Below are positions 8,955-10,537 of a stretch of 40,846 bases of DNA, piece by piece. Source of the DNA: Alphaproteobacteria bacterium MarineAlpha10_Bin2 (lineage in GTDB: Bacteria; Pseudomonadota; Alphaproteobacteria; UBA828). The DNA lies in NCBI GenBank assembly GCA_002937555.1, contig PTKB01000001.1:1-40846 (forward strand), written 5' to 3'. The stretch's first letter is position 1, and every line of letters starts with the position of its first letter. The position numbers were made by a program, and so were the translations under genes. The notes under the pieces were generated by a model. It worked only from the letters and a program-made list of their open reading frames with translations, had not been told where the DNA came from and did not search any database.

Positions 8955-9233
8955 CGTCACCGTCGCTGCGTTTGTTATCATGCGCCGCCAACACCATGGC
9001 GCCACGGCCAGCATGTCCGATTCGGGACGACCGGTAAAGGCGTCGCGGGCGGTCAAATGTTCCGCGCAACGGTGCAAACGGGCTGCAATATTTTCCGCCT
9101 CCGCGCTACGCCCCCGTAATTTGTTGATTTAGCGTAGAATTTTTCTGGCATGCCGCTTGCACCTCACGAACCATAATTGCGCCGCCAGACAACCGCGGCT
9201 TCGACGACCCATTTTGCTAAAGGAGTGTGTGGT

Positions 9234-9665
9234 ATGGCCCATTCGACGACGACGGTAGAGGAATTTCCGGAGCCCGGATCCGAACTTGCGATCAGTGTCG
9301 GCGCGATCGCCGAGAAGCTGTTGCAAACCATTCGCGACAAAGGGGACCGTACGGATTCCGATCAACGTGGCCTGTTAGAGCGCGCCCTCGCGGTGGCGAC
9401 CGAGGCCGAACAGCGTTTGGCCGAGCAGAGCCGGCGCATTGCCTTGTTGGAAATGCTGACGCTGACCGATGAGGTCACCAGCCTAATGAACCGACATGAT
9501 GCTGTTGATGAAAACCCTATGTATGTCTTCAAGGCGGACACGAAATACAAAGAGAATATTGAATATGAGGTTTGGTTGGAATTGCTAAAACGGCAGGACA
9601 AACAGGACAAACGGATTATGAGCAAACTTATGAACCGGCGTATTGGAAAAATGCCGCGTGGGTGA
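9234..9665 (+). pseudogene. 5' fragment of a GGDEF diguanylate-cyclase gene, reading out into an AT-rich insert
   Basis: AAGGAG lies 7 nt upstream of the ATG at 9234. The N-terminal helical region ends ...LEMLTLTDEVTSLMNR, the canonical entry to a GGDEF domain. About 57 codons of AT-rich sequence follow, then TGA at 9663-9665. Confidence 0.6.
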
Positions 9666-9779
9666 GGGCTAAAATCCAAAAGATGTTGAAAACCTACAAC
9701 TGCAATAAGGTGTCTTTGAGAAATACCGAAGGTAGGGGCTGAAAACTGACGCCAAATCGGTTGCACTTCCCGCAAAAAT

Positions 9780-9815
9780 CTACCAATTCACCTACCAACA
9801 GACCTACCAACAACA
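9780..9815 (+). repeat. 3 x 12-nt tandem repeat with CTACCAA core
   Basis: CTACCAATTCAC / CTACCAACAGAC / CTACCAACAACA, starting at 9780, 9792 and 9804. The complementary GGTAGG occurs at 9731-9736. Confidence 0.8.
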
Positions 9816-9842
9816 ATAATAATACCCATAAAATCAAATAGA

Positions 9843-9848
9843 TATAAT
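9843..9848 (+). promoter_or_regulatory. Consensus -10-like TATAAT box at the right end of the insert, 15 nt upstream of the ATG at 9864
   Basis: Exact TATAAT at 9843-9848. There is no convincing -35 at 17-nt spacing. TTGCAC at 9761-9766 is too far away. Function is speculative. Confidence 0.25.
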
Positions 9849-9863
9849 GAACTCACCGGACTG

Positions 9864-10364
9864 ATGAACCGGCGCGGCTTCGACCGCGAGCTCAGGCGCG
9901 CCTTGGCCAACGCCCGGCGCTACGACGAATGCGGCGTGCTCACGCTGATCGACCTCGATGATTTCAAAACCATCAATGATGTCTATGGCCATCTGGCCGG
10001 CGACCGGGTGCTGCGTACCATCGGCCAACTGTTGCAATTGCAAATCCGCGAAAACGACAGCGTGGCACGCATCGGCGGCGATGAGTTCGCCATTCTTCTC
10101 GCCAAATGTAGCGGTGAGATGGGAATCAGCCGGGCCGAAGAGATCGAACGGGTGCTCAATGAGCATTTTGTCAATTTTGGCGGTGCCGCGATCCCGGTAC
10201 GCGGCAGCGTCGGCATCACCAAATTCGACAAACGTGACGATAGCGAAAGCATCATCGCCCGCGCCGACCAGGCGATGTACCAGAAAAAACATGAGAACGC
10301 GCGCGAGCGTGCGCGCAGCGGCCATACGCTGTTGCTCGCGCCGCATGCAGGTGAATCCGACTAA
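9864..10364 (+). CDS. GGDEF domain protein (3' part of the split diguanylate cyclase; possibly expressed as a stand-alone domain)
   Basis: MNRRGFDRELRRAL...LIDLDDFKTINDVYGHLAGDRVL...RENDSVARIGGDEFAILL. The GGDEF active site is intact, with an RxxD I-site (REND) five residues upstream. It is in the same frame as 9234..9665. Confidence 0.8.
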   Translation: MNRRGFDRELRRALANARRYDECGVLTLIDLDDFKTINDVYGHLAGDRVLRTIGQLLQLQIRENDSVARIGGDEFAILLAKCSGEMGISRAEEIERVLNEHFVNFGGAAIPVRGSVGITKFDKRDDSESIIARADQAMYQKKHENARERARSGHTLLLAPHAGESD

Positions 10365-10400
10365 CCGCCCCTCTCGGCCCGCTTCAAGCAATTTCGCCAC

Positions 10401-10432
10401 CTTCGGCGCGGTGCATCAGCGCCGCGCCGAAG
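10401..10432 (+). terminator. Strong GC hairpin downstream of the GGDEF gene (candidate terminator, no clear U-tract)
   Basis: CTTCGGCGCGGTG-CATCAG-CGCCGCGCCGAAG forms a 13-bp stem with one G.U pair. It is followed by CTGTTGCC. Confidence 0.4.
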
Positions 10433-10537
10433 CTGTTGCCCCGGACTGACGCGCAAAGTGGCGTCGGCGGGCGCGAGAAGCTATTCTCCCGGCGGCGCAC
10501 GCCACTCAGATCAATATTCTTAGGGGAGATCATCATC

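What the first reader, a model, noticed from the sequence alone, without database searches (positions are those of the whole stretch)
9471..9872. GGDEF diguanylate-cyclase gene split by an in-frame 378-nt low-GC insert flanked by diverged 24-nt direct repeats
ORF 9234..9665 ends its native, GC-rich part with ...LTLTDEVTSLMNR, the canonical entry into a GGDEF domain. It then runs into AT-rich sequence and stops at 9663-9665. ORF 9864..10364 is in the same frame and begins (N)ELTGLMNRRGFDREL. It carries a complete GGDEF domain with an intact RxxD I-site and GGDEF motif. The 24 nt at 9471-9494 (EVTSLMNR) and 9849-9872 (ELTGLMNR) match at 18/24 positions and lie exactly 378 nt (126 codons) apart. 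The interval 9501-9850 has 141/350 G+C by hand count, versus 69/100 in 9861-9960. Deleting from one repeat to the other would recreate one continuous 250-codon cyclase ORF. The insert has no recognisable transposase, no terminal inverted repeats and several in-frame stops, so it is not an intein or a standard IS. I see three possible explanations. It could be a relic or miniature integrative element that carried its own copy of the target segment. It could be an excisable intervening element that switches the cyclase on and off, like the elements that interrupt sigK or nifD. Or it could be an assembly artefact.
Basis: partly seen in the sequence, partly recalled or inferred. Interest (0 to 1): 0.7.

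Follow-up and report, generated by a model that had tools for sequence, protein, structure and literature searches.

The report
Integrative-element scar splitting a GGDEF gene
A small diguanylate-cyclase gene is cut in two by the 354-bp leftover of a site-specific integrating mobile element that has lost its integrase and almost all of its interior. This is an ordinary kind of genomic scar; its one neat detail is that the target site inside the gene looks like the tRNA-Ser anticodon arm that related elements normally use.

Summary
The 250-codon GGDEF gene (9234..10364) is interrupted by 354 nt of 40% G+C DNA, flanked by 24-nt repeats that match at 18/24 positions and lie 378 nt apart. Orthologs in the same gene neighbourhood are uninterrupted and exactly 378 nt shorter. 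An independent assembly carries the same insert with both junctions, so it is not an assembly artefact.

The insert is a collapsed integrative element made of three pieces:
- The attL core plus about 7 nt of the element's left end.
- The last 56 codons of the element's last gene.
- The 183-nt right arm with CCTACCAAC repeats, followed by the attR core.

Related genomes show the left junction of a full element at this same site, with a tyrosine-integrase gene directly inside it. Another related genome shows the matching right junction. Sister elements with the same left-arm layout sit in the anticodon arm of tRNA-Ser genes (CGGTCTCGAAAACCG). The GGDEF site (CCGG[T/A]CTGATGAACCG, codons T-G-L-M-N-R) is a look-alike of that arm.

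There is no integrase homolog in the window. In another sample the interrupted allele also carries a nonsense mutation and a frameshift, which points to a dead gene rather than a switch.

Verdict: a decayed, CIME-like relic of an integrative element. It is a new member of a known kind, of low to moderate interest.

The parts
9234..9470 (+). 5' part of the GGDEF (diguanylate cyclase) gene: codons 1-79, the N-terminal helical region, upstream of the repeat.
   Evidence: It has no amino-acid differences from the same 79 codons of the uninterrupted ortholog in L001, only 11 synonymous changes. Its neighbours match L001: EipB-like gene upstream, then YjgF, TPP-enzyme and FemAB-like genes downstream.
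9471..9494 (+). Left repeat, the attL core. GAGGTCACC is native gene sequence. AGCCTAATGAACCGA is element-derived, or a diverged copy of the core.
   Evidence: Native sequence in L001 is GAGGTCACCGGACTGATGAACCGG. The attL of a full element at the same site in L009 is GAGGTCACCGGTCTGATGAACCGA|CAAGAT.
9475..9479 (+). TCACC, the only block identical in both repeats and bordered by mismatches on both sides. It is the minimal crossover segment. The second copy is at 9853-9857.
   Evidence: Direct comparison of the two repeats with the empty site in L001.
9495..9500 (+). Internal-deletion junction. The last bases of the element's left end (…ACCGA|CA) are fused to the middle of the element's last gene (TGATGCTGTTG…). 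There is a possible GAT microhomology.
   Evidence: The L009 left end continues CAAGATATTATT… towards the integrase gene. Homology to the P0129-type gene (L007 1050-1304, 77% nt identity) starts at window position 9496.
9495..9665 (+). Last 56 codons and stop (9663-9665) of the element's terminal gene, read in frame with the cyclase N-terminus. This produces the chimeric 143-aa ORF.
   Evidence: The fragment is 79-83% identical to the C-termini of P0129, P0131 and the L008 1..936 ORF. In L008 it is the C-terminal end of a protein of at least 311 aa, cut off by the contig start. P0159 (454 aa) is a distant full-length homolog with a weak glycosyltransferase signal.
9666..9848 (+). Non-coding right arm of the element (P arm of attR). 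It contains CTACCAA at 9780-9786 and two tandem ACCTACCAACA repeats at 9790-9800 and 9802-9812, followed by an A/T-rich stretch.
   Evidence: CCTACCAA occurs only twice in the whole 40.8-kb window, and both copies are here. The same 9-mer lies just upstream of the integrase start in every related left end (L009, L011-L017) and twice in the L003 right end. The 110 nt after the stop codon are homologous to L007 and L008.
9849..9872 (+). Right repeat, the attR core. GAAC is element-derived. TCACCGGACTGATGAACCGG is native gene sequence, or shared core.
   Evidence: Comparison with the empty site in L001, with the L003 attR …GATAGAATACACTCACCGGACTGATGAACCGG, and with L002 and L010.
9849..10364 (+). 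3' part of the GGDEF gene. The first ATG is at 9864, giving a 166-aa ORF with the GGDEF domain minus its first ~10 profile positions. RxxD and GGDEF motifs are intact.
   Evidence: Pfam GGDEF E 7.6e-38, profile positions 11-158 of 161. The fragment is orthologous to L001 residues 85-250.

Best explanation
The 354-nt insert is the collapsed remnant of a site-specific integrative element (a genomic island or prophage-like element) that uses a tyrosine integrase.

Proposed history:
1. The element integrated into the small GGDEF gene at the sequence coding D-E-[V/L]-T-G-L-M-N-R. Its integrase recombined an attP core that resembles this sequence. That left the two similar repeats: attL (native left half plus element right half) and attR (element left half plus native right half).
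2. An internal deletion, possibly at a GAT microhomology, then removed everything from about 7 nt inside the left end to the middle of the element's last gene. The integrase gene and the left-arm binding repeats were lost in this step.

What remains is the attL core, 56 codons of the last gene, the 183-nt right arm and the attR core.

The site choice has an explanation. Sister elements with the same left-arm layout integrate into the anticodon stem-loop of tRNA-Ser genes (CGGTCT-CGAA-AACCG). The GGDEF site (CCGG[T/A]CT-GATG-AACCG) is a look-alike at the same distance from the arm repeats.

The cyclase gene is now split and most likely dead. The relic is probably immobile, because it has no recombinase and lacks one arm.

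Shown directly: the insertion, the empty site, the same-site left and right junctions, the integrase identity, the origin of the coding tail, the tRNA-Ser flanks of the sister elements, and the absence of an integrase in the window.
Inferred: the order of events, the role of the CCTACCAAC repeats as arm-type integrase-binding sites, the exact crossover position, and loss of mobility and of cyclase function.
For: (1) Empty site. L001 has the same neighbouring genes and an uninterrupted 250-codon ortholog (94% aa identity) that is exactly 378 nt shorter. Seven more full-length orthologs of 82-90% identity exist.

(2) Real insert. L010 is an independent assembly with both junctions at 99% identity, and L002 confirms the right junction. 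Protein clusters for the two halves of the interrupted allele hold 34 (P0121) and 23 (P0010) member sequences.

(3) Left junction of a full element at the same site. In L009 the sequence runs …GAGGTCACCGGTCTGATGAACCGA|CAAGAT…, then about 45 nt of AT-rich DNA, then CCTAACAACAACCTACCAAC, then an ORF. Homologs of that ORF continue into a tyrosine recombinase: L016 scores 30.0 bits on PF00589 against a cutoff of 27.1 (E 5e-7); the L011 ORF hits phrog_1 integrase at E 6.5e-7 and the L008 integrase by BLASTP at E 2.7e-7.

(4) Right junction of a related element at the same site, in a host whose cyclase fragment is 84% identical. L003 has the same terminal ~75 nt with two ACCTACCAACA repeats, but a different interior.

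(5) Origin of the coding tail. The insert's in-frame tail is the C-terminus of a rare mobile-element protein (P0129, P0131, L008 ORF). Homology starts at 9496, right at the junction.

(6) Sister elements. In L015 and L011-L014 the flank to the left of the core matches E. coli tRNA-Ser genes at 89% and 83%. The core sits at the same spacing from the arm repeats as in L009.

(7) No autonomy. tblastn with the element integrases finds nothing in the window.

(8) Decay. Window versus L010 shows 18 differences in 1131 nt across the split gene and insert, against 8 in 2280 nt of flanking genes (Fisher p = 2e-4). The differences include a nonsense mutation and a 2-bp deletion. The same frameshifted tail appears in P0017, from a different data source.
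Against: - No contig with a complete element at the GGDEF site was recovered. The left end (L009, 793 nt) and the right end (L003) come from different samples, and both contigs break inside the element. The full gene content, and the claim that one element carried both the integrase and the P0129-type gene, are therefore reconstructed rather than seen.
- The left repeat differs from the L009 attL at 3 of 15 core positions. Either the ancestor was a diverged variant or the copy has mutated since, so the exact crossover point is not fixed.
- Integrase binding to the CCTACCAAC repeats is inferred from position only.
- The window's own copy of the 166-aa GGDEF fragment is still an intact ORF, so residual function is not excluded.
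- L002 starts inside the insert, and L003's contig ends about 75 nt beyond the part of its element that it shares with the window. Such breaks could also mean that the sequence is repeated elsewhere in those genomes.
Confidence: 0.8

Rival explanations
1. It is a non-autonomous miniature integrative element that is still mobile, a true CIME or a MITE-like hitchhiker. A full-length relative elsewhere in the genome or community would supply the integrase and excise or re-integrate it in trans.
For: Both att cores and the right arm with its repeats are retained. Full-length relatives exist at the same site in related hosts. L002 and L003 contigs break in or next to the element, as happens at repeats or at strain-variable sites. 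L007 carries a P0129-type gene close to a junction with GC-rich host DNA, and P0142 and P0143 are internally deleted versions of the gene, so shortened copies of this family recur.
Against: There is no second copy of the insert in the window. Exact scans for the right-end motif in species-representative genomes, JGI metagenomes and viral contigs found nothing except one chance plant-like hit. The left-arm repeats that sit in front of the integrase gene in every full left end are deleted here. The left boundary falls inside a gene, which looks like an accidental deletion rather than a defined element end. No uninterrupted allele is seen among relatives of 98% identity or more; the closest one is 94% identical.
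Confidence: 0.1
2. It is a regulated intervening element that switches the cyclase on and off by excision, comparable to the sigK skin element, the nifD element or phage regulatory switches.
For: Removing one repeat and the insert restores, in frame, a complete 250-codon cyclase. Both halves are intact ORFs in this window. N-part differences from L001 are all synonymous, and the C part has a pN/pS ratio of 0.17, but most of that divergence may predate the insertion.
Against: The insert encodes no recombinase, and no homolog of the element's integrase is found in 40.8 kb. The insert is the truncated debris of a gene plus one arm. L010 has a stop codon and a 2-bp deletion in the cyclase half, P0017 shares the frameshifted tail, and substitutions across the split gene are about 4.6 times denser than in the flanking genes. 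The repeats are only 18/24 identical.
Confidence: 0.04
3. It is an assembly or chimeric artefact, or these are really two separate conserved genes.
For: Abrupt drop in G+C content. L002 starts inside the insert, and L003's contig ends just beyond its related right end.
Against: L010 spans the whole structure with the same junctions in a different sample and assembler. The chimeric 143-aa ORF cluster has 34 member sequences. Uninterrupted orthologs show that the two ORFs are halves of one gene.
Confidence: 0.01

Closest known systems
CIMEs (cis-mobilizable elements): decayed ICEs or IMEs that lost their integration and transfer genes but kept attL and attR (definition in PMC5704250 and PMC6323972)
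   Same: The insert is flanked by attL- and attR-type direct repeats, has no integrase or transfer genes, and derives from a larger integrase-bearing element by decay.
   Different: It is far smaller (354 nt). One arm is almost completely deleted, so the att sites are probably not intact. It lies inside a protein-coding domain rather than at the 3' end of a tRNA or housekeeping gene. The parent element is unknown, and no conjugation genes have been seen in it. Mobilization has not been tested.
tRNA-targeting tyrosine-integrase genomic islands and prophages that use the anticodon stem-loop as the attB core (established knowledge; sister elements L011-L015 here)
   Same: Same integrase family (66-77% identity in the N-terminal domain). 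Same left-arm architecture: core, about 45 nt of AT-rich DNA, CCTACCAAC repeats, then the integrase start. The core has the form CGGTCT-N4-AACCG.
   Different: The target here is a look-alike of the tRNA-Ser anticodon arm within codons T-G-L-M-N-R of a GGDEF domain. Integration breaks the gene instead of regenerating it.
Prophages and intervening elements that interrupt protein-coding genes and can act as switches
   Same: A site-specific element sits inside an ORF, and precise excision would restore the reading frame.
   Different: Those elements encode, or are served by, a dedicated recombinase and are maintained. This one has no recombinase and shows signs of decay.
MITEs / insertion sequences
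   Same: Short, non-coding-capable, low-GC insert with flanking direct repeats.
   Different: No terminal inverted repeats. The direct repeats are long, imperfect and similar to an attP core rather than being an exact target-site duplication. It is single-copy.

Membership tests
Remnant of a tyrosine-integrase integrative element | Flanking direct repeats that are hybrids of native target (attB) and element (attP) sequence | tested here: met
   The left repeat is native GAGGTCACC plus non-native AGCCTAATGAACCGA. The right repeat is non-native GAAC plus native TCACCGGACTGATGAACCGG, judged against the empty site in L001.
Remnant of a tyrosine-integrase integrative element | An uninterrupted target site exists in relatives with the same gene neighbourhood | tested here: met
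   L001 has a 753-nt gene where the window has 1131 nt, a difference of 378 nt, with the same neighbours. Eight full-length orthologs were found.
Remnant of a tyrosine-integrase integrative element | Related full-length elements at the same site carry a tyrosine recombinase next to one att site | tested here: met
   The L009 left junction is followed by an ORF that is 76% identical to the L016 N-terminal ORF. In L016 the next ORF passes the PF00589 cutoff (30.0 against 27.1 bits). L011 hits phrog_1 integrase at E 6.5e-7. Caveat: the L009 contig ends after 79 codons, so the catalytic domain is seen only in sister elements.
Remnant of a tyrosine-integrase integrative element | The interior of the insert is homologous to the interior or end of such elements | tested here: met
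   9496-9744 is about 77% identical to L007 1050-1304. The right-terminal 75 nt match the L003 attR arm.
CIME (cis-mobilizable element) | Integration and transfer genes lost | tested here: met
   The 354-nt insert has no complete gene, and there is no integrase homolog in the window.
CIME (cis-mobilizable element) | Intact attL and attR that can still be recombined | tested here: inconclusive
   Both cores are present, but they are only 18/24 identical. The left-arm repeats found in all full left ends are deleted. Recombination competence cannot be tested in silico.
CIME (cis-mobilizable element) | Derived from an ICE or IME (conjugative or mobilizable parent) | not testable with these tools
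   No full-length parent was recovered. The partial relatives L005-L008 and L016 showed no relaxase or type IV secretion gene in the Pfam hits on record or in the ORFs I scanned.
Regulated excisable intervening element (sigK skin / nifD type, phage regulatory switch) | A cognate site-specific recombinase encoded in the element or nearby | tested here: not met
   None in the insert. tblastn with the element-family integrases found nothing in the window.
Regulated excisable intervening element (sigK skin / nifD type, phage regulatory switch) | The interrupted gene is kept functional, with both halves under purifying selection after insertion | tested here: not met
   L010 has a nonsense mutation and a 2-bp deletion, and P0017 shares the frameshift. 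Differences across the split gene are about 4.6 times denser than in the flanking genes, p = 2e-4. The evidence comes from few sequences, and one of them is a low-coverage contig.
Insertion sequence / MITE | Terminal inverted repeats, an exact short target-site duplication, and multiple copies | tested here: not met
   No inverted repeats at the ends. The repeats are imperfect and 24 nt long. The insert is single-copy in the window and absent from the collection scans.
Intron (group I/II) or intein | Matches a structured RNA family, or forms an in-frame continuous ORF with splicing motifs | tested here: not met
   No Rfam hit at gathering threshold. The only hit at E<=10 was a meaningless CrcZ match of 12.7 bits. 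There are four in-frame stops in the insert.

The most novel reading that the evidence does not exclude
A lineage of tRNA-Ser-targeting integrative elements may have been retargeted to the most conserved coding motif at the entry of GGDEF domains (T-G-L-x-N-R, whose codons mimic the anticodon arm). If so, it could insert into, and by excision restore, diguanylate-cyclase genes across alphaproteobacteria. The element would then be a mobile switch of c-di-GMP signalling, and the 354-nt mini-form could still be excised in trans by a resident full-length copy.
Probability: 0.06. Interest if true: 0.6.

Novelty: new member of a known kind. Interest (0 to 1): 0.3.

Why it matters
In practice, this locus should be annotated as one pseudogenised diguanylate cyclase plus a mobile-element scar, not as two genes (one of them a chimeric 143-aa "hypothetical protein").

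Biologically, it is a clean natural example of two things:
- A tRNA-specific tyrosine integrase can land in a protein-coding gene because a conserved peptide motif happens to be encoded by a sequence that looks like an anticodon stem-loop.
- Such an insertion can decay to a few hundred bases while both att cores survive.

If the same element family hits other GGDEF genes, it would be a recurrent mutagen of c-di-GMP signalling in marine alphaproteobacteria. I found no evidence for that beyond this one orthologous site.

Tried and rejected
- Rfam, whole window at gathering threshold and 9300-10000 at E<=10: nothing usable. Structured RNA and intron readings were dropped.
- blastn of the insert against plasmid and phage collections: only a 31-nt chance hit in Enterococcus plasmids, and no phage hit.
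- Exact scans for the right-end motif ACCTACCAACA[R/N]CAATAATAATA: 0 hits in GTDB species genomes, 0 in viral contigs, and 1 in JGI metagenomes. That hit (L004) is AT-rich repeat-rich DNA that looks eukaryotic and is a chance match.
- The genome scan with the P0129 alignment gave only L008. The viral scan gave none.
- Rfam on the tRNA half-sites (L015, L013, L009) gave nothing, because internal half-tRNAs are not scored. I replaced this with blastn against annotated E. coli tRNA-Ser genes.
- I looked for a full-length element through the last protein search with the L009 integrase N-terminus. All hits were short contigs or frameshifted genes.
- Viral contigs with the distant 454-aa homolog P0159 carry neither this integrase nor the C-terminal extension, so they say nothing about the parent element.
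- PHROGs and Pfam gave no function for the P0129-type protein. There is only a sub-threshold glycosyltransferase-1 signal in longer homologs.
- I considered that the truncated uvrB next to a related element in L006 shares a target-like sequence (GACAAGATCACTGGTTCAATGGAG) with the GGDEF site. The apparent junction there is about 12-15 nt upstream of the similar block, and the contig lacks the other end, so I do not rely on it.
- I considered 5'-truncation by a retroelement-like mechanism, because L007 and the window both keep only the 3' part of the element. I rejected it because the attL core and the first bases of the left end are retained, which fits an internal deletion instead.
Full report
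**Observation**

- An ORF starting at 9234 (ATG; an upstream TTG lies at 9177) encodes 87 residues of GC-rich sequence ending …LTLTDEVTSLMNR. It then runs into AT-rich DNA and stops at 9663-9665.
- The ORF 9864..10364 is in the same frame and contains a GGDEF domain with RxxD (REND) and GGDEF motifs.
- The 24-mers at 9471-9494 and 9849-9872 match at 18/24 positions and are 378 nt apart. A degenerate pattern covering both finds only these two sites in 40.8 kb, with none expected by chance.
- The 354 nt between them are 40% G+C in a 61% G+C window.
- The insert has no terminal inverted repeats, no Rfam match and no second copy in the window.

**It is a real insertion into one gene**

A search with the in-silico rejoined 250-aa protein found eight full-length orthologs of 82-94% identity.
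- The closest ortholog, P0001, lies on a 300-kb contig (L001). Its neighbours are the same as in the window: EipB-like gene, cyclase, YjgF-like gene, TPP enzyme, FemAB-like gene.
- The L001 gene is 753 nt where the window has 1131 nt, a difference of exactly 378 nt. Its sequence at the site is GACGAGGTCACCGGACTGATGAACCGGCGC.
- An independent metagenome assembly, L010, carries the same insert with both junctions at 99% identity. L002 confirms the right junction.
- The two halves of the interrupted allele are represented by protein clusters of 34 and 23 member sequences.

An assembly artefact and the "two conserved genes" reading are therefore both excluded.

**What the insert is made of**

Comparison with the empty site shows that both repeats are hybrids.
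- The left repeat is native up to GAGGTCACC and foreign after that (AGCCTAATGAACCGA).
- The right repeat is foreign up to GAAC and native from TCACC onward.
- This is the pattern of attL and attR after site-specific recombination between an attB and a similar attP.

A search with the chimeric N-terminal ORF explained the AT-rich coding tail.
- The tail (HDAVDENPMYVF…KLMNRRIGKMPRG) is the C-terminus of a rare protein family: P0129, P0131 and the ORF at L008 1..936.
- The family has only 31 representative clusters among 1.84 billion proteins.
- Nucleotide homology to L007 starts at window position 9496, right at the junction. It continues about 80 nt past the stop codon.
- In the window the stop codon is 183 nt from the host junction. 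L008 has a similar spacing: about 170 nt separate the stop codon from the adjacent tRNA-Thr gene, although the exact junction there is not defined. I therefore infer that this is the last gene before the element's right end.
- Longer homologs show that the fragment belongs to a larger protein, at least 311 aa in L008. The distant homolog P0159 is 454 aa and has a weak, sub-threshold glycosyltransferase signal. Distant versions are common on viral contigs.

**The parent element**

P0124 is another N-terminal cyclase fragment with a different tail. It led to L009, a 793-nt contig that shows the left junction of an apparently undeleted element at the same site. The sequence runs:
- …GAGGTCACCGGTCTGATGAACCGA|CAAGATATTATT…;
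- about 45 nt of AT-rich DNA;
- TTGACCTAACAACAACCTACCAAC;
- ATAATGG, the start of an ORF (MADMVRKSAPRTRHNP…YWYVRMY…).

Homologs of that ORF (P0132-P0137) are the N-terminal part of a tyrosine recombinase.
- In L016 the next ORF passes the Pfam Phage_integrase cutoff (30.0 against 27.1 bits) and has weak, sub-cutoff hits to SAM-like N-terminal domains.
- In L011-L013 the frameshifted continuation hits phrog_1 integrase (E 6.5e-7) and the bona fide integrase of L008 (E 2.7e-7).

L003 comes from a host whose cyclase fragment is only 84% identical. It shows the right junction of a related element at the same position. Its terminal ~75 nt match the window, including two ACCTACCAACA repeats, but the interior is different.

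The 9-mer CCTACCAAC marks the ends of this element family.
- It appears just upstream of the integrase start in every left end, and in the right arms of the window, L002, L003, L007 and L010.
- Its 8-nt core, CCTACCAA, occurs nowhere else in the window.
- I interpret these repeats as arm-type integrase-binding sites. That is an inference from position alone.

**How the 354-nt form arose**

The window's left junction (…AACCGACA|TGATGCTGTTG) shares …AACCGACA with the L009 left end. It then jumps into the middle of the terminal gene, where L007 reads …TATGATGTTGTTG. The simplest history is integration of a full element followed by one internal deletion. That deletion ran from about 7 nt inside the left end to codon ~-56 of the last gene, perhaps at a GAT microhomology. 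It removed the integrase gene and the left-arm repeats. tblastn finds no homolog of the element integrases anywhere in the window.

**Why this site**

Alignment of the left ends shows that sister elements have the same layout: core, about 45 nt of AT-rich DNA, CCTACCAAC repeats, then the integrase start.
- In L015 and L011-L014 the host flank is the 5' half of a tRNA-Ser gene. It is 89% and 83% identical to annotated E. coli tRNA-Ser genes.
- The core in those elements is the anticodon stem-loop, CGGTCTCGAAAACCG.
- In L009 the core at the same position is CCGGTCTGATGAACCG, the codons for T-G-L-M-N-R at the entry of the GGDEF domain. Both outer blocks, CGGTCT and AACCG, are identical to the tRNA-Ser core.

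The cyclase site is thus a look-alike of the family's tRNA target. The interrupted alleles (the window lineage and L003) bracket an uninterrupted one (L001) in sequence distance. The site was therefore either used more than once or vacated precisely at least once. Either is expected of integrase-mediated recombination.

**State of the gene**

The insertion falls at about profile position 10 of the Pfam GGDEF domain. It separates the N-terminal helical region from the catalytic domain. No sigma-70-like promoter is predicted on the + strand of the scanned region 9100-10500, which includes the right arm.

Window and L010 are 99.1% identical over 4150 nt, but the differences are unevenly spread.
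- There are 18 differences in the 1131 nt of split gene plus insert, against 8 in 2280 nt of flanking genes (Fisher p = 2e-4).
- They include a nonsense mutation (position 10284) and a 2-bp deletion (10298-10299) in the cyclase half.
- The same frameshifted tail appears in P0017, from a different data source.

This points to a pseudogene rather than a maintained switch. The evidence rests on few sequences, and the window's own copy of the fragment is still an open ORF.

**Comparison with known systems**

The relic fits the published description of CIMEs: elements that have lost their integration and transfer genes but retain attL and attR (PMC5704250, PMC6323972). It differs in four ways:
- it is extremely small;
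- one arm is almost entirely deleted;
- it sits inside a coding domain;
- nothing is known about whether the parent was conjugative.

It works like a tRNA-targeting integrase island that hit a secondary, look-alike site. It fails the tests for an IS or MITE, an intron, an intein and a regulated intervening element (see the membership table).

**Verdict**

The other two are not supported. This is a new member of a known kind, and the mimicry of the tRNA-Ser anticodon arm by GGDEF-motif codons is a modestly interesting detail.

The main gap is that no complete parent element at this site was recovered. A residual possibility remains that the mini-form is still mobilised in trans (about 10%), or that the family systematically targets GGDEF genes (about 6%).

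Noticed in passing
window 9626-9640 (compare 9860-9874 and 9480-9494): A third in-frame near-copy of the target lies inside the insert: ACTTATGAACCGGCG (K-L-M-N-R-R), 14/15 identical to the native GGDEF site. It belongs to a motif (SKLMNRRIGK) conserved in all P0129-type proteins. It is probably coincidence (blast E 1.7), but it puts three LMNR-coding segments within 400 nt.
   Followed up: partly
L010 positions equivalent to window 10284 and 10298-10299; P0017: An interrupted allele from another sample has an AAA>TAA nonsense mutation and a 2-bp deletion in the GGDEF half. The same frameshifted C-terminus (…ENARACAQR…) occurs in a JGI protein. This suggests the split gene is decaying in part of the population.
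   Followed up: yes
L005/L006 5232-6130 and 7060-10381: A more distant relative of the element carries P0131 and a ParB_N plus DruA-like (Druantia) gene split by a frameshift. It abuts a uvrB gene truncated just upstream of its YADKITGSM motif, and a CCTACCAA motif lies near the junction. The uvrB sequence GACAAGATCACTGGTTCAATGGAG loosely resembles the GGDEF target. The other end of the element is off the contig.
   Followed up: partly
L008 1-3110: In a Rhodospirillaceae MAG, the right end of a P0129-type element lies next to the 3' end of tRNA-Thr(CGT). A second small island (GFA-family gene plus a 407-aa tyrosine integrase) is bracketed by that tRNA and a duplicated tRNA 5' half. This looks like tandem accretion of elements at one tRNA.
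   Followed up: partly
L007 700-830: A P0129 gene starts about 100 nt from a junction with GC-rich host DNA, so its upstream part is missing. The junction region contains AATGAACCAAC, the same 11-mer as the attL copy in L010. This may be another internally deleted copy at a different host locus.
   Followed up: no
P0142, P0143: Two database proteins are internally deleted versions of the glycosyltransferase-like gene, with N-terminal and C-terminal parts fused. Deletions in this element gene therefore recur.
   Followed up: no
L019-L098 (IMG/VR viral contigs): A 454-aa protein family (P0159) is distantly related to the element's terminal gene. It has a weak glycosyltransferase-1 signal and no PHROG assignment. 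It is present on at least 146 viral contigs, so it is a common but unannotated phage protein.
   Followed up: partly
window 9834-10400 (-), 9362-9775 (-): Long antisense ORFs (188 aa and 137 aa) overlap the cyclase gene and the insert. I found no evidence that they are genes. ORFs of this kind are expected in high-GC DNA.
   Followed up: no
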